Assembly (NCBI GenBank): GCA_037444665.1
Contig: JBBILZ010000001.1
Location: forward strand, 25,434 to 89,433
Length of the DNA stretch: 64,000 nucleotides
Direction: 5' to 3'
Source: a candidate division WOR-3 bacterium
Lineage (GTDB): Bacteria > Hydrothermota > Tepidihabitantia > SM23-42 > JAOAFX01
Every line of letters starts with the position of its first letter. Positions within the stretch are counted from its first letter, which is position 1. The translations under genes and the position numbers were made by a program. The notes below the pieces were generated by a model. The model did no database searches. It saw only the letters and a program-made list of their open reading frames with translations, and had not been told where the DNA came from. Of the stretch, positions 23,343 to 39,450 are shown in pieces.

Positions 23343-25898
23343 ATGAGTGAAAAACTTGCCCGCTTAGGCAAAGAAGGGGCAGAAGAAGTAAACAAGATAA
23401 TCAACTCCTTTTTTGCTCCACTCATCAGTGTCGTGTATAAGTGGGATGGAGATATTTATCGGTTTGGTGGCGATGCTTTCTTAGCATTCTTCCCTGAAAT
23501 GCCGGCAAAAGAGTTATCAAGCAAAAGGGCACTGAAAGCGGGTATTGAGATTTCAAAATTTGTTAAAGCCCATGAAATAACAAAGACCAAAGTAGGCTCA
23601 TTCAAAATCAAAATCCATATCGGGTTGACAAAAGGCAAGATCTATTTTCAGGACCTGAAAAATAATTTCTTTCTTGGTGGCAGGATAGTAAATGATTTAA
23701 TGAAAATGATTGACCTTGCTGGTCCTGGTCAGATTGTTGTCAGCTCTGATGTTAAAAAAGAACTACCTGAAGTAAGTTTTACACCAAAAGAGGATACCTG
23801 GCAATATCTCGGAATGAAAATGAAACCGGCTAAAACACAGACAGAAATTAGTAAATTCTCCCCTAAAATATCTGATGATAAATTTACTACACTAAAAAAT
23901 TATATTCCTGATTGGTTACTTAAAAGGATTGAATTGAAACCACATTTTGACCACAAGGATGGAGAACATAGAAAGATTGCGGTCATCTTTTTGCATTTTG
24001 CCGGTATCCCCTATGATAAAAATCCTAAACAGGCGAGCGCAATGCTGGAGAGATTGTATAAAATTGTGAGCCAGTCAGTAGAAAAATACGACGGCTGGAT
24101 AAATGCAATTGATATCTATAAAGACAGCGAAAGATTTCTTGTGGTCTTTGGTTTTCCCAAAATTTATGAAGATGATGAAAAGAGGGCTGTTCTTTTTGCC
24201 TATGAAATTCTGAACCATCCTGAATTAAAACGGTTGCATTTGAGGGCAGGGATAAACTCGGGTTCAGTCTTTGCCGCACCCGTAGGCAGTGAATTGAGGC
24301 GTGAATATGCAACATTGGGTGATGCAGTAAATCTTGCAGCAAGGCTTGCTGCCAAAGCACAGAACCAAACAATTGTAGCAAGCGAACCCATATTTAATAA
24401 AACATTTGGACTCTTTGATTATGAATTTTTAGGTGAACAGGAATTTAAAGGGAAAAAGAAAAAGATTAAGACATATAAGATAATCAGAAAAAAACAGATT
24501 GAAAAGAAGGCACTGACAAGATGGCTCTCTGAAAGTGAAAAGATTGTTGGTAGAGATAAAGAAATTAAAAAGATGCAAAACCTTGTCAGTTTATGTTCTA
24601 CGGGAAAGGGACAGATTCTCGGAATTACTGGTGAGCCCGGGGTCGGAAAATCAAGACTGGTTCAGGAACTTATTAAATTTACAGAAAAGGCAGGATACTA
24701 TATTGTTAAAGGTGATTGCATTTCCTATGGCAGTGCCTTTTCATACCATCCCTGGGTAGAAATTTTAGAACAATTTTTTGATATTTCATCCAGCGATTCC
24801 TTAAAAATACGCACTAATAAAATAAAAGAGAAGTGCATCAGTGTTGATAAAAAACTTACTCAGTGGCTGCCAGTAATTGGCGAGGTTATGGGTGTTCCAT
24901 TCTTAGAAACATCACTCACAAAATACTTAGATGCCAAGATAAAAAAACAGCGTGTTTTTGATATTATCTTTGACTTCTTGAAATTTGTTGCCCGGACCAA
25001 ACCAGTAAATGTAATTATTGAAGACCTGCACTGGGCTGATACTGCTTCAATGGAACTTGTGAATTATATTGGTAGAAACATTGAGGATAAACAGATACTT
25101 TTAACACTGGTCTATCGTCCATTAAAGAAAAAAGAAGAATTTATGGAGAAGGGCTGGACAACTGAATTGAGTTTAAAAGAACTTTCAAAAGAAGAGAGTA
25201 TTGAGCTCGTTCAACTTTTACTCAATATCAAAAATATCCCTGATGACCTGAAAAAAATTATTATTGAAAAATCACAGGGGAACCCTTTTTATATTGAAGA
25301 ACTCGTAAAATCACTGATTGAGCAGGGCTATGTGATTGAAGAAAAAGGAACATGGAAATTTAAGGGTGATATAAAGAAACTTCAATTACCTGATACACTT
25401 GAGGCGGTTATCTTATCAAGGATTGACCGACTTGACCTGGAAGACCGTGATGTATTGCAGACCGCTTCAGTCCTGGGCAGGGAGTTTGATGAATTCTTGC
25501 TTGAACAAATATTCCCTGCGCCACAACTATTAAAAAAATCCCTTCATAATCTTGAGCGCCTTGATTTGATAAAACAGGAAGACAGCAAAGGAAAAAGGCA
25601 TTACTTTTTCAAACATATCCTCACCCAGGAGGTTGCATATGGTACCCTGTCTTTTGCCCGCAAACAAGAACTCCATCGCCAGACCGGCAGATTTATAGAG
25701 ACTGAACTTAAAGACCGAAAAGAAGAATTTCTGGGTCTGCTCTCTTACCACTTCTATGCGGGTGGAGATTATGATAAATCTCTGCTCTATTCAGTTGAAG
25801 CAGGTGAAAAGGCAAAAAAGGTCTATGCCAATGAAGAGGCAATAGAATTCTTCACCCGGGCAATTGATTCATACGAAAGATTGGAAGGAAAGATATAG
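23343..25898 (+). CDS. tandem class III nucleotidyl cyclase domains, STAND (AAA_16-type) ATPase and the start of a TPR region
   Basis: CHD1 carries the metal-binding Asp motifs (LLFADISGFT, GDAFLAFF), while CHD2 carries the N/R motifs (GDAVNLAARL). Walker A GITGEPGVGKSRL, then GNPFYIEEL and TASVLGREF, typical of MalT/AfsR-like ATPases. The conserved LLFADISGFT motif is encoded from about 23289, upstream of the first in-frame ATG/GTG/TTG at 23343, so the true 5' end is unresolved. Confidence 0.7.
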   Translation: MSEKLARLGKEGAEEVNKIINSFFAPLISVVYKWDGDIYRFGGDAFLAFFPEMPAKELSSKRALKAGIEISKFVKAHEITKTKVGSFKIKIHIGLTKGKIYFQDLKNNFFLGGRIVNDLMKMIDLAGPGQIVVSSDVKKELPEVSFTPKEDTWQYLGMKMKPAKTQTEISKFSPKISDDKFTTLKNYIPDWLLKRIELKPHFDHKDGEHRKIAVIFLHFAGIPYDKNPKQASAMLERLYKIVSQSVEKYDGWINAIDIYKDSERFLVVFGFPKIYEDDEKRAVLFAYEILNHPELKRLHLRAGINSGSVFAAPVGSELRREYATLGDAVNLAARLAAKAQNQTIVASEPIFNKTFGLFDYEFLGEQEFKGKKKKIKTYKIIRKKQIEKKALTRWLSESEKIVGRDKEIKKMQNLVSLCSTGKGQILGITGEPGVGKSRLVQELIKFTEKAGYYIVKGDCISYGSAFSYHPWVEILEQFFDISSSDSLKIRTNKIKEKCISVDKKLTQWLPVIGEVMGVPFLETSLTKYLDAKIKKQRVFDIIFDFLKFVARTKPVNVIIEDLHWADTASMELVNYIGRNIEDKQILLTLVYRPLKKKEEFMEKGWTTELSLKELSKEESIELVQLLLNIKNIPDDLKKIIIEKSQGNPFYIEELVKSLIEQGYVIEEKGTWKFKGDIKKLQLPDTLEAVILSRIDRLDLEDRDVLQTASVLGREFDEFLLEQIFPAPQLLKKSLHNLERLDLIKQEDSKGKRHYFFKHILTQEVAYGTLSFARKQELHRQTGRFIETELKDRKEEFLGLLSYHFYAGGDYDKSLLYSVEAGEKAKKVYANEEAIEFFTRAIDSYERLEGKI

Positions 25899-27027
25899 AT
25901 TGCGGACACAAGATTATCTGACAGAAGATAAATGTAGTTCAGTTAGACAAAGTGAACAAGTGAAAAGTATTCGCCAAAATCTATTAATAAAAGCCCTCAG
26001 AGGCAGAGCAGAGATTAATTATTTAACAGGAAAAATTGACGAAGGCATAAGAGATTATACACAGATACTCCAAGAATATGGTGAGAAGAATAGAGACGGA
26101 AATTTTTTTACAATGTTGGATACGATGATTCATATTGCTAATCTTCTGGCGGTTGGAAAGAGTGATTTTTCAGGGGCACAAACACTGATAAAAAAAGCAT
26201 TTAAAAAATTGGGCAAAAAAATGAATACCCGTACCTATGCCCGTGGTCTAAATTGTCTGGGTATAATTTTTAGGCGCCAAAGTAAATATGTTCAAGCACT
26301 AAGTCATTTCAGAAAAGCCTTACGCATATATCAGACTTTAAAAGAAAAAGAAGGTATCGCCGGTGTTTACTCTAACATTGCGCTTACCTATTTTAACAAA
26401 GGTAATCTTGATATTGCACTGAAATATTATAAAAAATGCTTCATTCTATGCCGAGATTCAAATGACCTGCCGACCATAGGAACAACCCTGGGCAATATCG
26501 GCCTTGTTTATCAGGAAAAGCGTCAATATGATAATGCTTTAAAGTACTATAAAGATTATTATGCACTGTCTCTAAAATCAGGCCATAAATTGGGTGTCAG
26601 TATTGCTTTAAGAGACATTGGCGCAATTTATGAAAAAAAATGTTTTTATGATAGGGCATTAGAATATTACAAGAAATCTCTTACTATAGCCGAAGAGATA
26701 AATGCACAAAGAGAAATCGGCATTGTTTCCGGACTCATTGGCTTCACATATAAAGAGCAGGGAGACTTTACCAATGCACTAAAATATTTGACCAGGGCGC
26801 TATCTATATTTGAAAAAATCTCTGATAAAAAACGGTTGGGTTTTGCTTTTATGCATTTAGGGATGGTCTATAGCGAACTCAAAAAATTTGAGGTAGCAAA
26901 ACAGTATCTCAATCAGGCTCAAAAAATTTTTGAAGATATCGGTGATAAAATATCTCTGTCCCGTGTTTTTACCTTGCTCTCAAAATTGGAGACCACACAG
27001 GGGAACGATAGTTACAATGAAAGATAA
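25864..27027 (+). CDS. TPR-repeat protein, paralog 1 (5' overlaps the cyclase ORF in another frame, 3' cut by an in-frame TAA)
   Basis: 387 aa of 34-residue TPR units (e.g. GNIGLVYQEKRQYDNALKYYK). The homology to paralogs 2 and 3 begins near SIRQNLLIKALRGRAE, with a possible GTG start around 25953. A TAA at 27025-27027 is followed in frame by the conserved C-terminal module. Confidence 0.55.
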   Translation: MIHTKDWKERYRLRTQDYLTEDKCSSVRQSEQVKSIRQNLLIKALRGRAEINYLTGKIDEGIRDYTQILQEYGEKNRDGNFFTMLDTMIHIANLLAVGKSDFSGAQTLIKKAFKKLGKKMNTRTYARGLNCLGIIFRRQSKYVQALSHFRKALRIYQTLKEKEGIAGVYSNIALTYFNKGNLDIALKYYKKCFILCRDSNDLPTIGTTLGNIGLVYQEKRQYDNALKYYKDYYALSLKSGHKLGVSIALRDIGAIYEKKCFYDRALEYYKKSLTIAEEINAQREIGIVSGLIGFTYKEQGDFTNALKYLTRALSIFEKISDKKRLGFAFMHLGMVYSELKKFEVAKQYLNQAQKIFEDIGDKISLSRVFTLLSKLETTQGNDSYNER

Positions 27028-27045
27028 ATATTTTTCTCAACAATC

Positions 27046-27258
27046 TTGAAGACTCGTGTGAGACTTGAATATGCAAAATCTCTTTACGAACTTGGGAAAG
27101 TATACCTAACTTGTCGTGAAACGTGGAACGTGAAAGGTAAAACGGCGAAAAAGGCGTTACAATATTTAAAAGAAGCAGAAAAGATTTTCAAAAAAGCAGG
27201 TGCTGAATTGTGGTTGAAGAAAACCAGCGACTTAATAAATCAATTACCCAATTATTAA
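27046..27258 (+). other. orphaned C-terminal module of TPR paralog 1, same frame and separated by a single in-frame stop
   Basis: The 70-aa ORF VRLEYAKSLYELGKVYL...AGAELWLKK matches the C-terminus of paralog 3 (LELAKSLYELGKVYL...AGAELWLKK). Its frame is identical to 25864..27027. Confidence 0.5.
27073..27221 (+). repeat. ~149-bp direct repeat, copy 1 (3' module of the TPR paralogs), about 85-90% identical to 29999..30148
   Basis: Aligned by eye: gcaaaatctctttacgaacttgggaaagtata...gcaggtgctgaattgtggtt. Confidence 0.7.
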
Positions 27259-28722
27259 ATGAAGGTGGATGCAAGAAGAGACCTTTTATTACGTGCATTA
27301 GAAGGAAAGGGTGCGGTTTTAATGTTGATTGGAAAATTTGATGCAGCTGCGAGCCTTTATCATCAATTGGCAAATAAGGGGCAGGATAATCCACTGATCG
27401 TAGCAAGGGCAGAAAGATCAATTGCTGATGTTTACCTGAAACAGGGCAAATACGATGAAGCTCTAAAAATTCTTGAAGGCAAAAAAGAAAATATCATCGG
27501 TGATTCAGAAAGTGGAGCAATTGAAAAGGCGTTAATTCATATATCTAAAGGTGGGGTTTACAGGTATAAAGGAGAATTAAGAAAAGCAACTAAAGAAATA
27601 AACAATGGATTAAAAATCTTATCTTTTATTCACAAAGAAACTAAGTTAAAAAAGAGATTTATTATCAAAAAAGCGCAGGCAACCGCCTTCAATAACCTGG
27701 CTTCAATTTCTCTGCTTAAAGGTAATTATAAAAAAGCAATAAAATTGTATAACAAATCATTGAAAATAATAAAAGATTTAAACGAAAAACAGGCAATTGG
27801 AACAACAAACGGTAATCTGGGCCTAATTTTTTTGGATAAAGGCGAATATTCAAAGGCAATTAATCTATTTATGAACCATATAAAAATATCAAAAATGATT
27901 GGTGATAAACGAGGCCTTAGTTTGGCAATTGGGAATTTAGGTTTGGTCTATGAAAATATGGGCAATTATAATAAGGCGATTGGGTTATTTACCAGATATC
28001 TTAAAATCGCTCAAGAGTTAGGAGATGAGCGTGGGATAGGGACTGCCTGTGGTAATTTAGGGCTGGCGTATAGAGACAAACAACAATATTCTGAAGCAAT
28101 TAAATTTCTCTTAAAAGATTTGGTCATTTCCGAAAAAATAGGCGACAGATACGGTTCCGGTATCTCTTGCTTAAATCTGGCTTTTGCTTATCTGGAAAAA
28201 GATAGTTTTAATGATGCAAAAAAATATTTATTCAGATCATTTAAAATATTTAAGAATATGGGTGATACATTTGATATGATTTATGTTAATCTGGGTTTAG
28301 CACTGTTAGGTTTATTGAAAATTAAAATGGGAACTGCGTCGCGACTTAGTATTGGGAAAACATTAAAATTTATTAAAAACGCACTAAAAACTGCAAAGGA
28401 GATGAATTCTAAAACAGCAATAGCAGATTGTTATTTTATATTTGCAAAAGCATATGTAGCCATTTCCAACTTCAAAAATGCTCAAATATATTTTAAAAAA
28501 GCCATCAAATATTTCAATAATCTGAAGTCAAAAAGGATGCTCGCTGATTCATACTTTGAATACGCAAAAATGCTAAAAAACTGGGAATCACCGAGACTTG
28601 AAGGTACCAGGAAATTTGAACAAAATTTAAAAAGGGCATTAAAGATATATAATGAATTAAGCTTGCCACAAAAAATCAAAGAAGTAAAAAAAGTAATGGA
28701 ACAAAACTTTGCTAATGATTAA
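27259..28722 (+). CDS. TPR-repeat protein, paralog 2
   Basis: 487 aa. N-terminus RRDLLLRALEGKGAVLMLIGKFDAA is homologous to paralogs 1 and 3, and the body is many TPR units. The TAAATG junction with the preceding ORF suggests coupling. Confidence 0.7.
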   Translation: MKVDARRDLLLRALEGKGAVLMLIGKFDAAASLYHQLANKGQDNPLIVARAERSIADVYLKQGKYDEALKILEGKKENIIGDSESGAIEKALIHISKGGVYRYKGELRKATKEINNGLKILSFIHKETKLKKRFIIKKAQATAFNNLASISLLKGNYKKAIKLYNKSLKIIKDLNEKQAIGTTNGNLGLIFLDKGEYSKAINLFMNHIKISKMIGDKRGLSLAIGNLGLVYENMGNYNKAIGLFTRYLKIAQELGDERGIGTACGNLGLAYRDKQQYSEAIKFLLKDLVISEKIGDRYGSGISCLNLAFAYLEKDSFNDAKKYLFRSFKIFKNMGDTFDMIYVNLGLALLGLLKIKMGTASRLSIGKTLKFIKNALKTAKEMNSKTAIADCYFIFAKAYVAISNFKNAQIYFKKAIKYFNNLKSKRMLADSYFEYAKMLKNWESPRLEGTRKFEQNLKRALKIYNELSLPQKIKEVKKVMEQNFAND

Positions 28723-30169
28723 AACCGGAAATTTAAGAAAACAGTTGCTAATCGACGCATTAGAAGGAAGAGCCAATGTATATAGACTTATAGGCGAATA
28801 CGATGAAGCAATACAAGACTATCAGAAGGCTATATTCTGGTGTAAAAAGGGAACAAAACCAGACTCCCTTTTAATAGCAAATCTAATAATTCACCTTGCT
28901 GACATCTTTCGAGAAGGCAAAAATGATTATGATAAGTCAGCGATGCTTATTAAAAAATTATTTAACAGGATGAGTAAAAAAAATAAAAATGCGCTTTATC
29001 CACTCGGTTTAAATATCCTTGGTATTATTCTCACCCACAGAGGAAGGTATAAACAAGCACTGGAATATCATAAAAAGGCACTCAGTATTAATAAAAAATT
29101 AAAGGACAAAACAGAAACAGGGAAAACATATTTGGTTATTGGAGACATTTATTATTATACAGGTGACTTCACAAATGCATTGAAATACTACAAAAAATCG
29201 GCTACAATATTAAAAACAACAGGCAATAAAACCAATCTTGATATAGCTTATAATAATATCGGTTCTATTTATTATGACCAGGGTAAATCTTTTATGGCGT
29301 TAAAATATTACAAAAGATCTCTTAACATATCTGAAAAGATAGAATCCAAACTTGATATTGGCGTTACTTGTGGCAATATTGGAACAGTATATCATAGTAT
29401 AGGCAACCTTGATATTGCCTTGAAATATTATGAGAAATCTATTAACATATTAAAGCAGATTGATTATAAAATAGGAATTACCACAGGTTACAACAACCTT
29501 GGTGCTGCATATTACGATAAAGGTAGATTCCATACCGCATTGAGATACTATAGAAAATCTTTAAGTACATTTCAGGAGATAGGTTATTATTTGGGGATTG
29601 GACTCGTTTATTTGAAGATGGGTCAGGCTTATACAGGATTAAGAAATTTCAGCCGAGCGGATAAATATCTTAAATTAGCAGAAAAAATATTTATGGGGAA
29701 TCCCAATAAAAAAATTCTATCAAAAATTTATATAGGTTTCTCGGAATTATACTACGGAAAAAAAGATTACGAAGGTGCATTTAAACATGCAAACAAGGCA
29801 CTCTCTTTAACAAGAGAAACAAAAATAATAGAACAGAAGATTTCGGCATTAAGACTAATGGGGAAGGCAATAAAGTGCCTGACGCATAATACAGGGCACA
29901 CGATGCAGGATAAAGCAATACCATCCACTAAAAAAGCGATTTCTTATCTTGAAGAATCAATTGCCCTTGCGCGGAGATACAATATGAAACTGGAACTTGC
30001 AAAATCTCTTTACGAACTTGGGAAAGTATATTTACCTTCTCGTGAAACGGAAAATGCGAAAGGCGAAACGGAGAAAAAGGCGTTACGATATTTAAAAGAA
30101 GCAGCAGAAATTTTCAAAAAAGCAGGTGCTGAATTGTGGTTAAAGAAAGTAAAAAACTTAATCGCTTAA
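28709..30169 (+). CDS. TPR-repeat protein, paralog 3
   Basis: 486 aa. N-terminus RKQLLIDALEGRANVYRLIGEYDEA and a C-terminal module shared with the paralog-1 tail. Overlaps the end of paralog 2. Confidence 0.7.
   Translation: MLMIKTGNLRKQLLIDALEGRANVYRLIGEYDEAIQDYQKAIFWCKKGTKPDSLLIANLIIHLADIFREGKNDYDKSAMLIKKLFNRMSKKNKNALYPLGLNILGIILTHRGRYKQALEYHKKALSINKKLKDKTETGKTYLVIGDIYYYTGDFTNALKYYKKSATILKTTGNKTNLDIAYNNIGSIYYDQGKSFMALKYYKRSLNISEKIESKLDIGVTCGNIGTVYHSIGNLDIALKYYEKSINILKQIDYKIGITTGYNNLGAAYYDKGRFHTALRYYRKSLSTFQEIGYYLGIGLVYLKMGQAYTGLRNFSRADKYLKLAEKIFMGNPNKKILSKIYIGFSELYYGKKDYEGAFKHANKALSLTRETKIIEQKISALRLMGKAIKCLTHNTGHTMQDKAIPSTKKAISYLEESIALARRYNMKLELAKSLYELGKVYLPSRETENAKGETEKKALRYLKEAAEIFKKAGAELWLKKVKNLIA
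29999..30148 (+). repeat. ~149-bp direct repeat, copy 2
   Basis: See 27073..27221. Confidence 0.7.
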
Positions 30170-34192: not shown

Positions 34193-34843
34193 TTATTCTA
34201 AGTGATAGTCAGTGAGACTGAACTCACCATTACTATTCTTGAATCTAACCAGACCTATACCCGGTGCATAGTATTCTTCTAAATATATCTGTTGGGAAAT
34301 AGTTGAATCTGGTGTCGCAACAGACTCAGATATTGAGATAATAACCTTATAGACCTCGCCATAGAGTTCATCATCTTGATAGTCTGAAACCAATCCCTCT
34401 ATCAAATATCTTGCCTTTATCCATTCACCAAAAAAATCAAGTGAATCTGAAAGCGAATCAATGAATCTATTTCCAGTGACCAATGGCAGTTCAAGTCTGG
34501 TAATATAACCCTGTAAAATTGTATAAATAGAGCCACCATAATTGTGCGTTATCTCTATATATTCTTTGATGCCTTTGATATCCTTAGAAAAATAATGGAA
34601 TTCACCAGAAGCATTGAAAGGATAAACTTCCCTTTGTAATAATGTATCCACTGGTTCAACTGTAATACTCACAATCTCGGGTTTGTATAAATCATTATTT
34701 GCGTATCGCCACCAATTCCCTTCTTTTACTGGAAAGTATTCACTGCCCGAACGCTCAATAATATTATTCTTGCAGGAATTAGAAGAGATTATTATTATAC
34801 ACACTAAAACAGTTCTTATCAGCAATTTAAAATTCATAACCAA
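34193..34843 (-). CDS. hypothetical lipoprotein
   Basis: 216 aa, signal peptide ending ...ISSNSC. No recognisable domain. Confidence 0.5.
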   Translation of the reverse strand: MVMNFKLLIRTVLVCIIIISSNSCKNNIIERSGSEYFPVKEGNWWRYANNDLYKPEIVSITVEPVDTLLQREVYPFNASGEFHYFSKDIKGIKEYIEITHNYGGSIYTILQGYITRLELPLVTGNRFIDSLSDSLDFFGEWIKARYLIEGLVSDYQDDELYGEVYKVIISISESVATPDSTISQQIYLEEYYAPGIGLVRFKNSNGEFSLTDYHLE

Positions 34844-35911: not shown

Positions 35912-36682
35912 ATGAAAAGAATAAAAGATTCCCTTCAATTGATTCTGGTCGCATCCGGGCTAATTTTTTCGCCCTGCTGTTATGAAGAAGCAGACAATGA
36001 GCCACCTGCAGTTCCCAGAGGTTTGAATTCCATTACTGGTGACGAACAAGTGATGCTCACCTGGTATCAGAATACTGAACCTGACCTTGCTGGTTATAGG
36101 GTCTTTCGCAGTCCTGCACCAGAAGGACCTTATTATCTTATCGGTGAAACAAACTTAGATTATTTCCTTGATTATGGTTTAATGAACGGACAAACCTATT
36201 TCTATGCAATCTCTGCTTATGACATACATAATAACGAAAGTGAACTTTCTTATGAGACGGTCTATGATACACCCAGACCCGAAGGATTTGATGAAAAAAT
36301 CTTTGATTATACTGAATACCCTGCGTATGCTGGTTGGGACTTCAGCAATTATACAGTAGTTCCATACAATTATTCAAACTGTGATTTTTATTTTGGTTAT
36401 GACGATTACAATAATTCTTATTATTTCTTCATTGGTAAGCCCGGTGGATTGATTCAGGATATGGGTTATACCTATTCTTTTGATGAGATTGGTTATGCGC
36501 CTGATGATGGTTGGTCTCCAACCGGCATTGCACAAGCCATTGAAGGCCATACCTATGTTATCTGGACCTGGGACAACCATTTTGCCAAAGTCCGTATCAC
36601 ATCAATAAAATCTGATTATGTCGTGTTTGACTGGGCATACCAGGTTGACCCGGGTAACCCGGAACTGGTGAGGAAAAAATGA
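35912..36682 (+). CDS. secreted or lipoprotein-like protein with a fibronectin type III domain
   Basis: Start set at MKRIKDSLQLILVASGLIFSPCC, which has an AGAGGTG ribosome-binding site. The ORF track starts at 35816, inside the operator. FN3-like segment PPAVPRGLNS...LTWYQNTEPDLAGYRVFRS...TYFYAISAYD. Confidence 0.55.
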   Translation: MKRIKDSLQLILVASGLIFSPCCYEEADNEPPAVPRGLNSITGDEQVMLTWYQNTEPDLAGYRVFRSPAPEGPYYLIGETNLDYFLDYGLMNGQTYFYAISAYDIHNNESELSYETVYDTPRPEGFDEKIFDYTEYPAYAGWDFSNYTVVPYNYSNCDFYFGYDDYNNSYYFFIGKPGGLIQDMGYTYSFDEIGYAPDDGWSPTGIAQAIEGHTYVIWTWDNHFAKVRITSIKSDYVVFDWAYQVDPGNPELVRKK

Positions 36683-36723
36683 AAAATAATCTGCATTTTT
36701 GCAGAGCAACAAAGGAGGTTAAA

Positions 36724-37698
36724 ATGAAACGCTTATTTTTACTCACCCTTGCCGCAATCCCACTATTTGCATTCAGTGTCAATTTCATCTACTGCGATTA
36801 TGATTATGATGATGACTACTGGAACGATGAATACTGGTATCCTGAACCCGATTATTATGATGACTACTGGGTCTATTACCCACATGGCTATTATTGTGTT
36901 TACTATGTGTGGTACCATCCCTGGTGGTGGGATTGGTATTGGTGGCATTGCCATTGGTGCCACCATTTTGACTGGCACTTTTTCCGTGCTGGTTTCTATG
37001 TTGTCTGGTATGAAGACGGATGCTGGTGGTTCAGACCGAGATATGGCAGGTGGGTACGATACAAAGTTCCCTATGCCTATAATGAATTCAGATATAAAGC
37101 AAGGTCCTATGGAGTCAATCTTCCAGAAAAGCCCACAAGGGAAATTAATATTCCTTATAATGAAAAAGAGATTCAACGCCTGACAAAAGAAAAGGACCCA
37201 CAACTATATGCACGCATAGAAAAAGAGTACAGGTCAGGGAACCTGGACAGAATGAAGCAAGAATACGAAACAAAAGTAAAAAGAGAAATTGCAGTGAAGA
37301 ATGAAGAATACAGAAAAACAAAATTACAAAACCCGGCTGATGAACGATATAATACAGGCAAGGATGTAAATAATAAAACAATTGACCGAAGAAAATCTGA
37401 TTCTTATAATGATGATAGGCAAAAGTCAGATTATAATGAGTCAAGAATAATAAAGAAGTCTAAAAATGTGCCTGACAATGATACTGAAACTCCTGAAAGA
37501 TATGACGAATCTGATAATAGAAAATACGAGCAAAAAAAGAATTACACAGCACCAGACAAGTCTAAACAAACTGAACGCGGAGACGAATACAACGCACCAA
37601 AAACTCCAAAAACACCAATCAGAAACCTACCCCCACCTGACCAGGAACAGGAAAAAAGAACGGTTAAAAAACAGAGTGTGCAAAAATCAAGGAGATAA
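36724..37698 (+). CDS. secreted Trp/Tyr/His/Asp-rich low-complexity protein with a Lys/Glu/Arg-rich C-terminal tail (novel)
   Basis: Start at MKRLFLLTLAAIPLFAFS with an AAGGAGG ribosome-binding site. The ORF track starts at 36679, which overlaps the upstream stop in an ATGA. About 100 residues with roughly 16 Trp, 28 Tyr, 7 His and 4 Cys (e.g. YHPWWWDWYWWHCHWCHHFDWHFF). An antisense ORF exists but lacks these supports. Confidence 0.55.
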   Translation: MKRLFLLTLAAIPLFAFSVNFIYCDYDYDDDYWNDEYWYPEPDYYDDYWVYYPHGYYCVYYVWYHPWWWDWYWWHCHWCHHFDWHFFRAGFYVVWYEDGCWWFRPRYGRWVRYKVPYAYNEFRYKARSYGVNLPEKPTREINIPYNEKEIQRLTKEKDPQLYARIEKEYRSGNLDRMKQEYETKVKREIAVKNEEYRKTKLQNPADERYNTGKDVNNKTIDRRKSDSYNDDRQKSDYNESRIIKKSKNVPDNDTETPERYDESDNRKYEQKKNYTAPDKSKQTERGDEYNAPKTPKTPIRNLPPPDQEQEKRTVKKQSVQKSRR

Positions 37699-37700
37699 AA

Positions 37701-38348
37701 ATGTTCACCACCATATTTTTCTTAATCATCAGCATAAATACAGAAACAGTTGCGATGACTACTCCGGACAATTCATTAAATATTGAGAGCTGGCTTAATA
37801 AAGACGAACCCGTATATGTCCCTGGTGAACGACTGAAAATCTTCTTTAAGGTGGATAAGGACTGCTATGTCGCAGTCTATGATATTGATGTTGGGGGAAG
37901 GGAAAATCTTCTCTTCCCCCAGCAAGGGGACAATGGATTTGTTCAGGCAAATAAGGTCTATGAACTACCCCCTGCAGATGCAGATTTTGATTATGAGATA
38001 ACCGGCCCTGAAGGCATAGAAAAAATTATTATTCTTGCCTCAATTAAAGAATTGCCTGACCTTGCTGATACCATAGAAGTATCAAAAAGAGAAATTGAGC
38101 TATCCATTGAAGAACCAGAGCCAGCAAAACTGAGAATTATCTCAACACCTCCCAAATCCAGGATCTATATCAAAGAAGTAATGACTGGCGAGCGTGTTTA
38201 TGTCGGAAAAACACCACGGACCATTGTCTTAAAGCCTGGCGAATATATTGTGGAGATAAAAAAATTAGGGTATCAGACCATTAAAAGGCGAATCTGGCTT
38301 GAGCCGGAAGAAAAAAGAAGGATCTATGTTAGTCTATGGCCCTGGTAA
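37701..38348 (+). CDS. secreted protein with a DUF4384-like domain and a C-terminal PEGA domain
   Basis: 215 aa. Signal peptide, VYVPGERLKIFFKVDKDCYVAVYDIDVGG (DUF4384-like, from memory) and a PEGA-like IISTPPKSRIYI...GKTPRTIVLKPGEYIVEIKKLGY. Starts 3 nt after the upstream stop. Confidence 0.45.
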   Translation: MFTTIFFLIISINTETVAMTTPDNSLNIESWLNKDEPVYVPGERLKIFFKVDKDCYVAVYDIDVGGRENLLFPQQGDNGFVQANKVYELPPADADFDYEITGPEGIEKIIILASIKELPDLADTIEVSKREIELSIEEPEPAKLRIISTPPKSRIYIKEVMTGERVYVGKTPRTIVLKPGEYIVEIKKLGYQTIKRRIWLEPEEKRRIYVSLWPW

Positions 38349-38390
38349 TCTTGACAAACCAATTATATTTTATATAATTGAGGAGTTAAA

Positions 38391-38759
38391 ATGAATAGAA
38401 TATTCTTAAGCATTATCTTTATTCTCGGTAGTTTATGGGCAGTGAAACCTGTGCCCAGAATTGAAAAAACAGATGAAGACAAAAAACCTGTTATACAGAT
38501 TCAGATTCCTGATGAGAATAAAGAGGACCAAAAAGAACAGAATAATAATTCTTTAGAGACTAACAAACCAAAGAACCAGAATAATAAAAATGACCAGTTC
38601 ATTGATAGTGACTCAAATAATGTAAATGACCAGCGTGAAAATGACCTGTTAAAGATAAAACAATTGAAAAACAAATTTAAGGACCTCTTCAAAAAAGATA
38701 GCGACACAGATAGAAAACCCAAAGAACCAGTAAAAACAAAGAAATCTGTTAAAAAATAG
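38391..38759 (+). CDS. secreted Lys/Asn/Gln/Asp-rich low-complexity protein
   Basis: 122 aa. Signal peptide followed by a KNQDE-rich, probably disordered, polypeptide. Confidence 0.4.
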   Translation: MNRIFLSIIFILGSLWAVKPVPRIEKTDEDKKPVIQIQIPDENKEDQKEQNNNSLETNKPKNQNNKNDQFIDSDSNNVNDQRENDLLKIKQLKNKFKDLFKKDSDTDRKPKEPVKTKKSVKK

Positions 38760-39450
38760 TTGATGTGTATTCCTTCAATATGATGCTGTTTTTACCCGAA
38801 GAAGTTAAAAGTTTCACAAAGCGGTGGGGAAAATTTTTTTCAATATAAAAATAGAATTTTATACTCGTAAATACTACGCGCGGCTTCATCATTATCTTCC
38901 AGCATTCAAAAATACCAACAGGTGTTGTTACACTATCTTCACCAATCACCTCTAAATCAGCATTCACTATCATAAATTCAGGCACGAGTAATCTTATCCT
39001 TTTTTTAAAATCTTTACTATAGGTAAAACCCCTTAATACAAAGTCAAGTGTATGTCGGTCATATACCGGCGCACTCTCTTTATAAAAACTCTTTCTGCCC
39101 TGATAATTGACTTCAATAATATGATCTTTTTTAACACTCAACTCCCATTTTCCTTTTATGATTTTATTTAGATAGATTGTCTGTAGATTTACTGGGTCAA
39201 GGATTGTTTCCACTGTGCGGTCTGAAATATATGTAATACGATAGCCAGCACTGTCCCTTTCTGATTTTACTTCTATCTTACCAATCTTTCCCTTATCATT
39301 TGTCTCATAAACAATATATTCGCTATCAGGCAATAGAGATTCACCAGCAAAAAGATAAAACGATAATAAAAAAAATATACAAAAAGCATACTTTGAAAAA
39401 TTGTTAGCAGAAACAGTTGTGTGAAATCTCACAATCTTAAGACTTTGCAC
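38749..39450 (-). CDS. hypothetical exported protein (possibly DUF3108-like)
   Basis: 233 aa, hydrophobic N-terminus and beta-rich. The family guess is weak. Confidence 0.4.
   Translation of the reverse strand: MQSLKIVRFHTTVSANNFSKYAFCIFFLLSFYLFAGESLLPDSEYIVYETNDKGKIGKIEVKSERDSAGYRITYISDRTVETILDPVNLQTIYLNKIIKGKWELSVKKDHIIEVNYQGRKSFYKESAPVYDRHTLDFVLRGFTYSKDFKKRIRLLVPEFMIVNADLEVIGEDSVTTPVGIFECWKIMMKPRVVFTSIKFYFYIEKNFPHRFVKLLTSSGKNSIILKEYTSTIF

What the first reader, a model, noticed from the sequence alone, without database searches (positions are those of the whole stretch)
36724..37698. Secreted protein whose ~100-residue core is about 45% Trp+Tyr, with His/Cys clusters and an acidic Tyr/Asp-rich lead-in
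After a good signal peptide, the sequence reads DYDYDDDYWNDEYWYPEPDYYDDYWVYYPHGYYCVYYVWYHPWWWDWYWWHCHWCHHFDWHFFRAGFYVVWYEDGCWWFRPRYGRW. I count about 16 Trp, 28 Tyr, 7 His and 4 Cys, followed by a roughly 200-aa Lys/Glu/Arg-rich tail. I know of no protein family with this composition. An acidic Tyr/Asp block followed by a W/H/C cluster could suit binding of metals or mineral surfaces, redox-active aromatic chemistry, or a precursor for Trp/Tyr cross-linking. The DNA here is itself a GGT/TGG microsatellite-like tract (ggtggtgggattggtattggtggcattgccattggtgcc). I prefer the plus strand over the antisense ORF at 36763..37203 because the plus strand has an AAGGAGG ribosome-binding site, a signal peptide and tight operon spacing.
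Basis: seen in the sequence. Interest (0 to 1): 0.75.

Follow-up and report, generated by a model that had tools for sequence, protein, structure and literature searches.

The report
Tryptophan-packed secreted protein of WOR-3 bacteria
This is a real, conserved, exported protein of uncultured WOR-3 bacteria with a 90-residue core that is 40% tryptophan plus tyrosine; it matches no known family or fold, always sits in the same four-gene cell-envelope operon, and its function is still unknown.

Summary
Window 36724..37698 (+) encodes a 324-aa protein with a signal peptide, an acidic Asp/Tyr lead-in and a core with 16 Trp and about 20 Tyr. A helical region and a basic disordered tail follow. It is not a repeat expansion, an antisense artefact or an assembly error. 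92 homologs (39-100% identity) exist, all in WOR-3/Stahlbacteria MAGs. Twelve of the 16 Trp are at least 95% conserved, and codon-position divergence fits the plus frame.

The gene is always second in a four-gene cassette: FN3/beta-sandwich lipoprotein, this protein, a DUF4384+PEGA protein, and a small Lys-rich secreted protein. The lipoprotein is widespread in FCB-group phyla. There, the next gene often encodes other aromatic-rich or Cys/His-rich exported proteins with basic tails (DUF6600, DUF4384 fusions, further orphans).

Best reading, at low confidence: a subunit of a cell-envelope complex whose aromatic, Cys/His-stabilised module is a specific binding or packing surface, and whose basic tail binds anionic envelope polymers. 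Metal binding remains possible. The CXXCH motif occurs in only 72% of members, so a c-type haem is unlikely.

The parts
35912..36682 (+). g1: lipoprotein with an FN3 domain and a conserved C-terminal beta-sandwich domain (256 aa). It is the first gene of the cassette and the most conserved one.
36712..36718 (+). Shine-Dalgarno sequence AAGGAGG, 5 nt upstream of the ATG of g2
   Evidence: Read directly from the sequence.
36724..37698 (+). g2: the Trp/Tyr-rich exported protein (324 aa plus stop), which is the finding
   Evidence: 92 homologs. Codon-position divergence 0.26/0.18/0.53 in this frame.
36724..36780 (+). Signal-peptide-like N-terminus (MKR + LFLLTLAAIPLFAF + S), residues 1-19
   Evidence: Read from the sequence; the pattern is conserved in the aligned homologs. 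No lipobox: residue 24 is Cys in only 33 of 92. Cleavage was not predicted with a dedicated tool.
36796..36873 (+). Acidic Asp/Tyr(/Trp) lead-in, residues 25-50
   Evidence: Median net charge -9 and no Lys or Arg across the family. AF2 pLDDT below 50, so predicted disordered.
36874..37032 (+). Hyper-aromatic core, residues 51-103. It includes PWWWDWYWW and the three-stranded GFYVVWY / CWWF / RWVRY sheet that begins here.
   Evidence: 12 of 16 Trp are at least 95% conserved as Trp. The Wimley-White interfacial energy of the best 19-aa window is -16.8 kcal/mol, against -9.3 for the next ORF in the window. AF2 gives pLDDT 50-63 for residues 56-76 and above 80 from about residue 80.
36949..36966 (+). 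Cys/His cluster C76-H-W-C79-H80-H81 (a CXXCH-type motif)
   Evidence: C76 is kept in 88/91, C79 in 70/91 (His in 14, Val in 6, Ala in 1), H80 in 86/91. CXXCH is present in 66/92. C58 is kept in 89/90.
37033..37323 (+). Conserved basic alpha/beta and long charged-helix region, residues 104-200 (RPRYGRWVRY..., LPEKPxREI, KDPxLY, SGNLE)
   Evidence: Invariant columns R104, P105, R106, Y107, G108 and others. AF2 pLDDT 80-94, with helices at model residues 128-180. Median net charge +10.
37324..37695 (+). Variable Lys/Arg/Glu/Asn-rich tail, residues 201-324, ending in a conserved C-terminal Arg
   Evidence: Not alignable between distant homologs, yet always present. Median net charge +10.5 and K+R 25%. 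The final Arg is at least 90% conserved.
37701..38348 (+). g3: exported DUF4384 + PEGA protein (215 aa), starting 2 nt after the g2 stop
   Evidence: Pfam DUF4384 E=7.6e-20 and PEGA E=2.1e-10. Present after g2 in every locus that extends that far.
38391..38759 (+). g4: small exported Lys/Asn/Asp/Glu-rich protein (122 aa), predicted disordered from its composition
   Evidence: No Pfam hit. Conserved after g3 in every locus that extends that far, at 27-94% identity.

Best explanation
g2 is a Sec-exported, non-enzymatic subunit of a conserved four-protein cell-envelope module of WOR-3 bacteria. The other three are the g1 lipoprotein (FN3 plus beta-sandwich), g3 (DUF4384+PEGA) and the small Lys-rich g4.

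Proposed working, from N- to C-terminus:
- A disordered polyanionic Asp/Tyr lead-in.
- A compact module of about 55 residues built from position-specific Trp and Tyr, held together by the C58/C76 pair (a disulfide or a shared ligand) and a His-rich CHWCHH cluster. This module is the specific docking or packing surface, either for the beta-sandwich partners g1/g3 or for a membrane or glycan interface.
- A folded basic alpha/beta unit with a long charged helix that acts as a spacer.
- A polycationic disordered tail that binds anionic envelope polymers (lipopolysaccharide, peptidoglycan-associated or extracellular polymers).

Shown here: the gene is real and under purifying selection; it has export-type N-termini, as do its three partners; the operon is strictly conserved; the residues are conserved position by position; the charge dipole is conserved.

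Inferred: that the four proteins form a complex, what the aromatic module binds, and what the tail binds.
For: - Purifying selection in the plus frame.
- 92 homologs with conserved residues 35-195, and 12 of 16 Trp at least 95% conserved as Trp. This argues for a defined fold rather than a generic sticky low-complexity stretch.
- All four cassette proteins start with signal-peptide-like or lipoprotein-like N-termini.
- The cassette g1-g2-g3-g4 is intact in every one of 44 loci where the contig allows, while the flanking genes differ.
- FN3, PEGA and beta-sandwich domains are typical of cell-surface and envelope proteins. PEGA was described in cell-surface proteins (PMC2447325, listed).
- Rosetta-stone type evidence. 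In other phyla the gene after g1 fuses DUF4384(+PEGA) with a basic tail (L087, L118 and others). Some instead fuse DUF4384 with a Cys/His/aromatic stretch and a tail (L046, L112, L125). So the modules that WOR-3 splits over g2, g3 and g4 occur in one polypeptide elsewhere.
- In Hydrothermia-type loci the same slot holds FecR+DUF6600 (a W/Y/G-rich domain) plus a basic tail.
- The charge dipole is conserved: lead-in -9, middle +10, tail +10.5.
- A cultured WOR-3 bacterium is diderm, so a periplasm and an outer membrane exist (PMC12285271).
Against: - No experiment or interaction prediction supports a complex; a multimer prediction could not be run.
- AF2 confidence for the most aromatic segment is only 50-63 and the alignment is shallow (Neff about 2.2), so the 'compact module' is not established.
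- No fold match gives functional guidance.
- In one large clade of g1 homologs the next gene is an unrelated secreted protein of about 150 aa without an aromatic region or a tail. The g1-partner rule is therefore not universal.
- The conserved Cys/His cluster could mean that cofactor chemistry, not scaffolding, is the real function.
Confidence: 0.35

Rival explanations
1. It is a periplasmic or surface metal-binding protein (Zn, Cu or Fe), acting as a metallochaperone, a buffer or a metal-stabilised sensor. The metal would be held by C58, C76, C79/H79, H77, H80 and H81. Neighbouring Trp could contribute cation-pi contacts. The Asp/Tyr lead-in could chelate hard cations such as Fe(III) or Ca(II).
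For: C58 (89/90), C76 (88/91) and H80 (86/91) are nearly invariant, and H77 and H81 are about 81% conserved. The commonest replacement of C79 is His (14 of 21 changes), which is the classic ligand-for-ligand swap. The lead-in is conserved as pure Asp/Glu/Tyr/Trp with no basic residue. Own knowledge: the transferrin Fe(III) site uses Tyr, Asp and His, and CusF uses a Trp cation-pi contact.
Against: C79 is Val or Ala in 7 sequences. Three sequences lack C76 and one of them also lacks C58. The number of Cys varies from 2 to 9 and is often odd. There is no similarity to any known metal-binding family or fold. No metal transporter or regulator lies in the cassette or is conserved next to it. A Cys pair can equally be a structural disulfide.
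Confidence: 0.2
2. It is a monotopic membrane-interface anchor. The uniformly aromatic segment (residues 56-87) wedges into the interfacial zone of the inner or outer membrane, as Trp-rich peptides do, and holds the charged helix and tail at the membrane surface.
For: The interfacial partitioning energy is extreme (-16.8 kcal/mol for YYCVYYVWYHPWWWDWYWW, nearly twice that of any other ORF in the window). AF2 predicts two short helices there at low confidence, as expected for a segment that needs a lipid environment. The invariant P-W-W-W recalls the PWWWP of tritrpticin (own knowledge).
Against: The positions are conserved specifically as Trp rather than as any aromatic residue. The Cys/His cluster is conserved and the segment carries a net negative charge with no flanking Lys or Arg. 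None of this is typical of interfacial anchors, which tolerate W/Y/F exchange and are usually cationic.
Confidence: 0.15
3. It is an extracellular adhesive or matrix protein. Tyr/Trp-rich and Lys/Arg-rich parts interact through cation-pi contacts (as in mussel-foot-protein coacervates, or by head-to-tail electrostatic polymerisation) and glue cells to surfaces, minerals or each other.
For: An acidic aromatic head and a basic tail lie in one chain, and this arrangement is conserved. A second Lys-rich disordered protein (g4) lies in the same operon. Other lineages carry even more Tyr-rich orphans in the same slot, with Ser/Lys-rich tails (L098, 52% W+Y).
Against: No secretion signal beyond Sec was detected in g2: there is no T9SS C-terminal domain, although such domains occur elsewhere in the window. 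The strict positional conservation and the confidently folded residues 80-200 do not look like a coacervating low-complexity protein.
Confidence: 0.1
4. It is a c-type haem protein. Haem would be attached covalently at C76-x-x-C79-H80, and the dense Trp/Tyr array would serve as an electron- or hole-hopping path.
For: A Sec-type signal plus CXXCH in 66 of 92 members. CXXCH also recurs in unrelated-looking partner proteins of g1 in other phyla: YPRYxCxxCH in L046, L110, L112, L114, L125, L086, L100 and L124.
Against: The motif is not invariant. C79 is His, Val or Ala in 21 of 91 sequences and H80 is lost in 5. There is no sequence or fold similarity to any cytochrome. Published surveys find cytochrome c oxidase only in the Hydrothermia cluster of WOR-3, which carries the DUF6600 version instead of this family (PMC12285271). 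Whether these genomes encode haem-lyase systems could not be checked here.
Confidence: 0.06
5. It is not a real protein: the ORF is an artefact of a repeat tract or an assembly error, the true gene is the antisense ORF 36763..37203, or it is a peptide precursor that is destroyed by Trp/Tyr cross-linking.
For: Alternative frames are unusually open here (median stop-free runs of 79-96 aa on two antisense frames). Trp, Tyr and Asp codons give the DNA a repetitive look.
Against: Only frame +1 is open in all 39 orthologs, and third codon positions diverge two to three times faster than first and second positions. 92 homologs exist in independent assemblies. Tandem repeats are negligible. No RNA family is hit. 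The protein is 324 aa long, residues 80-200 are confidently folded, and no modifying enzyme lies in the operon.
Confidence: 0.01

Closest known systems
DUF6600 (PF20245) proteins of the FecR-DUF6600-basic-tail type
   Same: They are exported and carry a module of about 100 aa very rich in Trp, Tyr and Gly, followed by a long Lys/Glu/Pro/Arg-rich tail. They are encoded directly after an ortholog of the same FN3 lipoprotein g1 (L047 Hydrothermia, L060, L063). Their function is also unknown; no paper in the library mentions the domain.
   Different: Homology is not detectable. There was no Pfam hit at E<=10 in 28 members, and hhalign of the two profiles gave probability 2%. The WOR-3 family has no FecR domain and no Gly-rich W-G-W hairpin repeat. 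It does have an acidic Asp/Tyr lead-in and a conserved Cys/His cluster.
DUF4384(+PEGA)-basic-tail and DUF4384-'YPRYxCxxCH'-tail proteins encoded after g1 in KSB1, Calditrichota and unbinned metagenome contigs
   Same: They occupy the same operon slot, start with the same type of export-like N-terminus and end in the same type of basic tail. Some have a Cys/His/aromatic stretch containing CxxCH. In WOR-3 the DUF4384+PEGA part is the separate next gene, g3.
   Different: The aromatic cores do not align significantly (hhalign probabilities 0.1-0.9%). One marginal hmmsearch hit (L124, 9.9 bits) was in a register that hhalign did not confirm. Their Trp content is far lower.
Trp-rich membrane-interface segments: tritrpticin (PWWWP), indolicidin, the puroindoline Trp-rich domain, the HIV gp41 membrane-proximal region (own knowledge)
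   Same: Clusters of consecutive Trp, including P-W-W-W, and very favourable interfacial partitioning.
   Different: Those segments are short, cationic and tolerant of aromatic exchange. Here the segment is about 55 aa, has a net negative charge with almost no Lys or Arg, has Trp conserved position by position, and carries Cys and His.
c-type cytochromes (CXXCH haem attachment)
   Same: A Sec-exported protein with C-x-x-C-H in 72% of members.
   Different: The motif is not invariant. There is no cytochrome fold or sequence similarity, and the lineages carrying the family are reported as mostly non-respiring.
Charged single-helix or extended periplasmic spacers such as TolA domain II and ER/K helices (own knowledge)
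   Same: A long Glu/Lys/Arg-rich helix (AF2 model helices 128-180, pLDDT 80-87) followed by a disordered charged tail in an envelope protein.
   Different: No sequence relation. There is no membrane anchor of the TolA type and no Tol-Pal genes in the cassette.

Membership tests
DUF6600 (PF20245) | Match to the Pfam model at or above its gathering score | tested here: not met
   No DUF6600 hit at E<=10 in any of 28 family members. As a positive control, the Hydrothermia slot-2 protein scores E=3.7e-27.
DUF6600 (PF20245) | Profile-profile similarity to an alignment of DUF6600 domains | tested here: not met
   hhalign of A2 against A3: probability 2.2%, E=0.022, 47 columns. This is a compositional resemblance only.
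DUF6600 (PF20245) | Same genomic slot (directly after the g1 lipoprotein) and the same architecture (aromatic module followed by a basic tail) | tested here: met
   This supports 'works like', not membership.
c-type cytochrome | Invariant CXXCH haem-attachment motif in an exported protein | tested here: not met
   CXXCH is present in 66 of 92. C79 is His, Val or Ala in 21 sequences and H80 is lost in 5.
c-type cytochrome | Cytochrome-like sequence or fold | tested here: not met
c-type cytochrome | Cytochrome c maturation system (Ccm or Ccs) in the same genome | not testable with these tools
   Whole genomes could not be scanned. The literature reports cytochrome c oxidase only in the Hydrothermia cluster of WOR-3 (PMC12285271).
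DUF3300 / DUF5667 (names UniRef gives to two orthologs) | Match to the Pfam models | tested here: not met
   The names are on P0008 and P0035. Neither family appears at E<=10 when these same proteins are scanned.
Simple-repeat or low-complexity expansion | Tandem DNA repeats underlying the biased region, with length and sequence varying freely between relatives | tested here: not met
   Only two arrays of at most 3.3 copies, scores 33-49. The core has the same length and conserved positions in 92 sequences.
Trp-rich cationic membrane-active peptides or domains | Short Trp cluster flanked by Lys/Arg, with net positive charge | tested here: not met
   Residues 25-103 contain 0-2% Lys+Arg, and the median net charge is -9 for the lead-in and -2 for the core.
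Bacterial lipoprotein | Lipobox with an invariant Cys at the end of the signal peptide | tested here: not met
   Residue 24 is Cys in only 33 of 92 and is otherwise Tyr, Asn, Ser, Ala and others. By contrast, g1 has an invariant lipobox Cys.
Conserved WOR-3 four-gene envelope cassette (defined here) | Gene order g1 (FN3 lipoprotein), g2, g3 (DUF4384+PEGA), g4 (small basic protein) on one strand with short spacers | tested here: met
   All 44 loci keep this order wherever the contig is long enough. In the window the spacers are 41, 2 and 42 nt.

The most novel reading that the evidence does not exclude
The Trp/Tyr module could be one representative of an unrecognised class of envelope proteins across the FCB group. 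In this reading, one conserved FN3 lipoprotein is partnered by interchangeable hyper-aromatic modules that are unrelated in sequence. Four such types were seen: this family, DUF6600, the L098 type with 52% W+Y, and the Cys-rich L096/L097 type. Each is followed by a basic tail. Aromatic density itself would then be the selected property. It could act as a pi-stacked 'zipper' interaction surface, or as a metal- or haem-assisted Trp/Tyr charge-hopping element in the periplasm. Either would be a new fold and a new mode of action.
Probability: 0.2. Interest if true: 0.8.

Novelty: categorically new. Interest (0 to 1): 0.55.

Why it matters
Proteins with 40-50% Trp+Tyr that are conserved position by position are very rare. 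Trp is the costliest and rarest residue, so keeping 12 invariant Trp in 55 residues implies a structure or chemistry that ordinary folds do not provide.

The family has no Pfam model, no solved or recognisable fold, and no relative among 1.84 billion representative proteins. Yet it sits in a strictly conserved operon whose first gene is shared by several FCB-group phyla.

If the aromatic module proves to be a new binding fold, a new metal or redox site, or the variable partner of a widespread lipoprotein, it would open a small unexplored part of diderm envelope biology in uncultured bacteria. It would also be an attractive target for structure determination.

If it turns out to be an ordinary scaffold, the result is still a clean definition of a new family and a four-gene module that can be annotated.

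Tried and rejected
- Pfam and NCBIfam scans of 28 members at E<=10 gave only noise: DUF6003 at E=0.12 and the MmpL3 tail at E=0.5.
- A PDB sequence search with the family profile gave only noise: phage spackle at E=0.23.
- An exhaustive profile search of 1.84e9 representatives returned only the family itself, N-terminally cut fragments and one spurious repeat protein, P0114.
- hhalign against DUF6600, against the slot-2 proteins of KSB1, Calditrichota and Hydrothermia, and against the 'YPRYxCxxCH' module was never significant.
- hmmsearch with filters off against 71 slot-2 proteins gave marginal hits: L124 (E=0.002, 9.9 bits), L100 and L046. The L124 alignment looked attractive, placing CxxCH on CxxCH and FY..DxG..PRxG on the hairpin. 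I do not count it as homology, because the score is tiny, the composition is biased and hhalign chose another register.
- The UniRef labels DUF3300 and DUF5667 were not reproducible.
- A link to flagella was considered because FliC/FlaG/FliD/FliS, FlgN or FliW/CsrA lie upstream of g1 in some loci. This holds for only 5 loci and for no WOR-3 locus, so I dropped it.
- Literature searches found nothing on DUF6600, only passing mentions of DUF4384, and nothing combining WOR-3 with tryptophan-rich proteins.
- Repeat expansion, antisense coding, an RNA element and an assembly artefact were all rejected.
Full report
**What is in the sequence.** The window has an ORF at 36679..37698 on the plus strand. 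It gives a 324-aa protein beginning MKRLFLLTLAAIPLFAFSVNFIYC. Most orthologs begin at exactly this Met, while the public gene call (P0001, 339 aa) uses the upstream ATG.

The quoted 86-aa stretch (residues 25-110) holds 16 Trp, 19 Tyr, 7 His and 4 Cys. The Trp, His and Cys counts are therefore right. The Tyr count of 28 is too high for that stretch; the whole protein has 37. W+Y is 41% there and 52% in the densest 50 aa.

Against the window's own amino-acid usage (W 1.0%, Y 4.9%), the chance of at least 16 Trp in 91 residues is about 2e-15. No other ORF of at least 150 aa in the window exceeds 21% W+Y in any 90-aa stretch. The DNA is not a microsatellite: Tandem Repeats Finder reports only a GATTAT x3.3 and a 15-mer x2.3. 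No Rfam family matches the region.

**Coding strand.** I extracted the orthologous gene from 39 loci and threaded the DNA onto the protein alignment. Mean pairwise differences at codon positions 1, 2 and 3 of the conserved core are 0.256, 0.176 and 0.526. Frame +1 is the only frame open in every ortholog. The antisense frames are long on average because Trp, Tyr and Asp codons create few stops on the other strand, but they are interrupted in many genomes. The plus-strand reading is therefore settled as far as sequence can settle it. An identical protein is also encoded on an independently assembled contig, so an assembly artefact is excluded.

**The family.**
- A search of 5.8 billion clustered proteins found 92 homologs at 39-100% identity over essentially the full length. 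All that carry a name come from candidate division WOR-3 or unclassified 'bacterium' MAGs.
- A scan of one genome per GTDB species found the gene in 40 species. All are WOR-3, Candidatus Stahlbacteria or the old 'TA06 DG_78' bin.
- The conserved part is residues 35-195; the tail is not alignable but is always present.
- The extreme composition is a family trait. W+Y in the core is 34-46% in all 90 members that cover it, with on average 16.4 Trp and 20.0 Tyr.
- The Trp are conserved as Trp, not merely as aromatic residues. W38, W49, W63, W67, W69, W73, W78, W84, W95, W101 and W102 are at least 95% conserved, and W68 is 88%. That is the signature of a defined structure, not of a sticky low-complexity region.
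- Charge is also conserved. The Asp/Tyr lead-in has a median net charge of -9 and no Lys or Arg. The aromatic core is about neutral. Residues 104-200 carry +10 and the tail +10.5.
- The last residue is Arg in at least 90% of aligned members, although the tail is otherwise free to vary. I cannot explain this.

**Tests against what is known.**
- Pfam and NCBIfam scans of 28 members at E<=10 gave only noise.
- Two orthologs are called 'DUF3300' and 'DUF5667 domain-containing' in UniRef. The same proteins do not hit those models.
- A profile search of all PDB sequences gave nothing below E=0.2.
- An exhaustive HMMER profile search of 1.84 billion representative proteins returned 20 hits. These were three full-length cluster representatives of the family, truncated fragments of it, and one spurious repeat protein.
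- AlphaFold2 on a 45-sequence alignment of residues 20-200 gave mean pLDDT 72.5 and pTM 0.65. The acidic lead-in is disordered. The most aromatic stretch (about residues 56-76) is drawn as two short helices at pLDDT 50-63. From about residue 80 onward confidence is 80-94, with a three-stranded sheet (GFYVVWY, CWWFRP, RWVRY) and then helices that include a long charged one.
- By every test I could run, this is an orphan family with no recognisable fold.

**Genomic context.**
- In the window the gene is second of four co-directional genes with spacers of 41, 2 and 42 nt. They are g1 (35912-36682), g2 (the finding), g3 (37701-38348; Pfam DUF4384 E=8e-20 and PEGA E=2e-10) and g4 (38391-38759, a 122-aa Lys/Asn/Asp/Glu-rich protein).
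- All four begin with signal-peptide-like sequences.
- The order g1-g2-g3-g4 is kept in every one of 44 loci wherever the contig reaches, down to 39% identity of g2. The flanking genes differ.
- The rest of the window is ordinary housekeeping and envelope content, including proteins with T9SS sorting tails.
- A cultured WOR-3 bacterium is diderm and non-motile (PMC12285271), so these are proteins of a periplasm or outer-membrane setting.

**The wider system.**
- g1 is far more widespread than g2. It has about 2000 homologs at roughly 40-55% identity in KSB1, Calditrichota, Bacteroidota and Hydrothermia.
- I fetched three such genome loci and 80 metagenome loci and examined the gene that follows g1.
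- Where g1 is at least 62% identical to the window's, the next gene is always the W/Y family.
- Elsewhere the slot holds one of the following:
  - FecR + DUF6600 (itself a Trp/Tyr/Gly-rich domain) + a basic tail (L047, L060, L063).
  - DUF4384 (+PEGA) + a basic tail in one polypeptide (L087, L094, L088, L121, L118, L078, L101, L106).
  - DUF4384 + a 'YPRYxCxxCH...DPYxxxC' stretch + a tail (L046, L112, L125), or small lipoproteins with the same motif (L086, L100, L124).
  - Other orphan hyper-aromatic exported proteins with Ser/Lys/Arg-rich tails (L098 with 52% W+Y in 60 aa; L096/L113 with 40%; L097 with a CCCCC run).
  - In one large clade, an unrelated secreted protein of about 150 aa with none of these features.
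- So the modules that WOR-3 spreads over g2, g3 and g4 are fused elsewhere. An aromatic-rich, often Cys/His-bearing, basic-tailed partner of g1 recurs in forms with no detectable sequence similarity.
- Homology between them could not be shown. hhalign gave 2% probability against DUF6600 and below 1% against the others. A marginal hmmsearch hit to L124 was not confirmed.

**The Cys/His cluster.**
- C58 (89/90) and C76 (88/91) are almost invariant, and nine members have only these two Cys in the core.
- C79 is Cys in 70 sequences, His in 14, Val in 6 and Ala in 1.
- H80 is kept in 86 of 91. H77 and H81 are kept in about 81%.
- C76-x-x-C79-H80 is formally the haem c attachment motif, but it is intact in only 66 of 92 members. 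There is no cytochrome-like fold or sequence. The WOR-3 groups that carry this family are described as largely non-respiring. I rate a haem protein as unlikely.
- The Cys-to-His swap at position 79 is what a metal ligand would do, so a structural or functional metal site is a live possibility. A C58-C76 disulfide is equally compatible. In the three sequences that lack C76, C58 is lost too in one.

**How it most likely works.** I commit, at low confidence (0.35), to a structural or adaptor role in a four-protein envelope complex.
- The protein is exported by Sec.
- The position-specific Trp/Tyr module, stabilised by the Cys pair and perhaps a metal, is a specific docking or packing surface. Its target would be the beta-sandwich partners g1/g3 or a membrane or glycan interface.
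- The charged helix is a spacer.
- The basic tail binds anionic envelope polymers.

The export-type N-termini, selection, synteny, positional conservation and domain-fusion relationships are shown. The complex, the ligand of the aromatic module and the ligand of the tail are inferred.

The rivals are a metal-binding protein (0.2), a monotopic membrane-interface anchor (0.15; the 19-aa window YYCVYYVWYHPWWWDWYWW has an interfacial free energy of -16.8 kcal/mol), an adhesive or matrix protein using cation-pi contacts (0.1), a c-type haem protein (0.06) and an artefact or precursor (0.01).

**Novelty and verdict.** At the level of protein family and predicted fold the finding lies outside everything the available libraries hold, which is why I file it as categorically new. 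Whether the mechanism is new is unknown.

A specialist would find the composition and its strict conservation surprising, and the recurrent aromatic partner of a widespread lipoprotein is a lead worth following. No long-standing question becomes testable yet, and function rests on inference. Interest: 0.55.

Noticed in passing
window 38351-38378 (+): A perfect sigma-70 consensus promoter (TTGACA, 16 nt, TATAAT; 12 of 12) lies in the 42-nt spacer between g3 and g4, so g4 may have its own promoter. Whether WOR-3 uses this promoter type is unknown.
   Followed up: no
window 36940-36965 (+): A 26-nt palindrome, TGGTGGCATTGCCATTGGTGCCACCA followed by TTTT, sits exactly on the WWHCHWCHH codons and was flagged as terminator-like. 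It is probably a by-product of TGG/CAT/TGC/CAC codons, but its conservation at the DNA level was not checked.
   Followed up: no
window 37693-37695 (last codon of g2); alignment A1: The C-terminal residue is Arg in at least 90% of aligned homologs, although the tail is otherwise unalignable. Most slot-2 proteins of other lineages, and g4, also end in Arg or Lys. This is unexplained.
   Followed up: partly
L098, L096, L113, L097 (genes directly after g1 homologs): These are further orphan hyper-aromatic exported proteins with Ser/Lys/Arg-rich tails. L098 has 52% W+Y in 60 aa, L096 and L113 have 40%, and L097 has 33% plus a CCCCC run. None has a Pfam hit and none aligns to the WOR-3 family.
   Followed up: partly
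L046, L110, L112, L114, L125, L086, L100, L124 (genes after g1 homologs): A recurring motif, [YW]YPRYxCxxCH...DPYxxxC, appears in DUF4384 proteins and in small lipoproteins encoded next to g1 homologs. It may be a separate uncharacterised Cys/His module.
   Followed up: partly
L045 1-4725; L046 4839-5225; L059, L065, L066 upstream of g1: Late flagellar genes (flagellin, FlaG, FliD, FliS; FlgN; FliW-CsrA) lie just upstream of g1 in 5 non-WOR-3 loci. None does so in a WOR-3 locus.
   Followed up: partly
window 36679-36723: The public gene call for this protein (P0001, 339 aa) starts at ATG 36679, which overlaps the g1 stop. That is 15 codons upstream of the RBS-preceded start used by most orthologs, so it is probably a start-site mis-annotation.
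   Followed up: yes
P0008, P0035 (orthologs): The UniRef names 'DUF3300 domain-containing' and 'DUF5667 domain-containing' are not reproduced when the same sequences are scanned against current Pfam at E<=10.
   Followed up: yes
window 35912-36682 (g1), residues 213-226: g1 has an invariant GHTYVxWTxDNHFAK segment (H213, H223) in a C-terminal beta-sandwich that could not be assigned to a family. There are only weak cohesin (E=0.004) and HmuY (E=0.1, in the L047 ortholog) hints.
   Followed up: partly
window 34193-34843 (-) and 38749-39450 (-): Two ORFs with weak DUF3108-like hits (E=0.08, and E=0.002-0.01) lie near the cassette on the opposite strand: one directly downstream of g4, the other about 1 kb upstream of g1. 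The same neighbours occur in the close relative L003 but not in distant loci.
   Followed up: no
window 23343-30169 (+): An 851-aa protein with an adenylate/guanylate cyclase domain plus AAA_16 is followed by three TPR-repeat proteins. This is a STAND-like signalling cluster unrelated to the finding.
   Followed up: no
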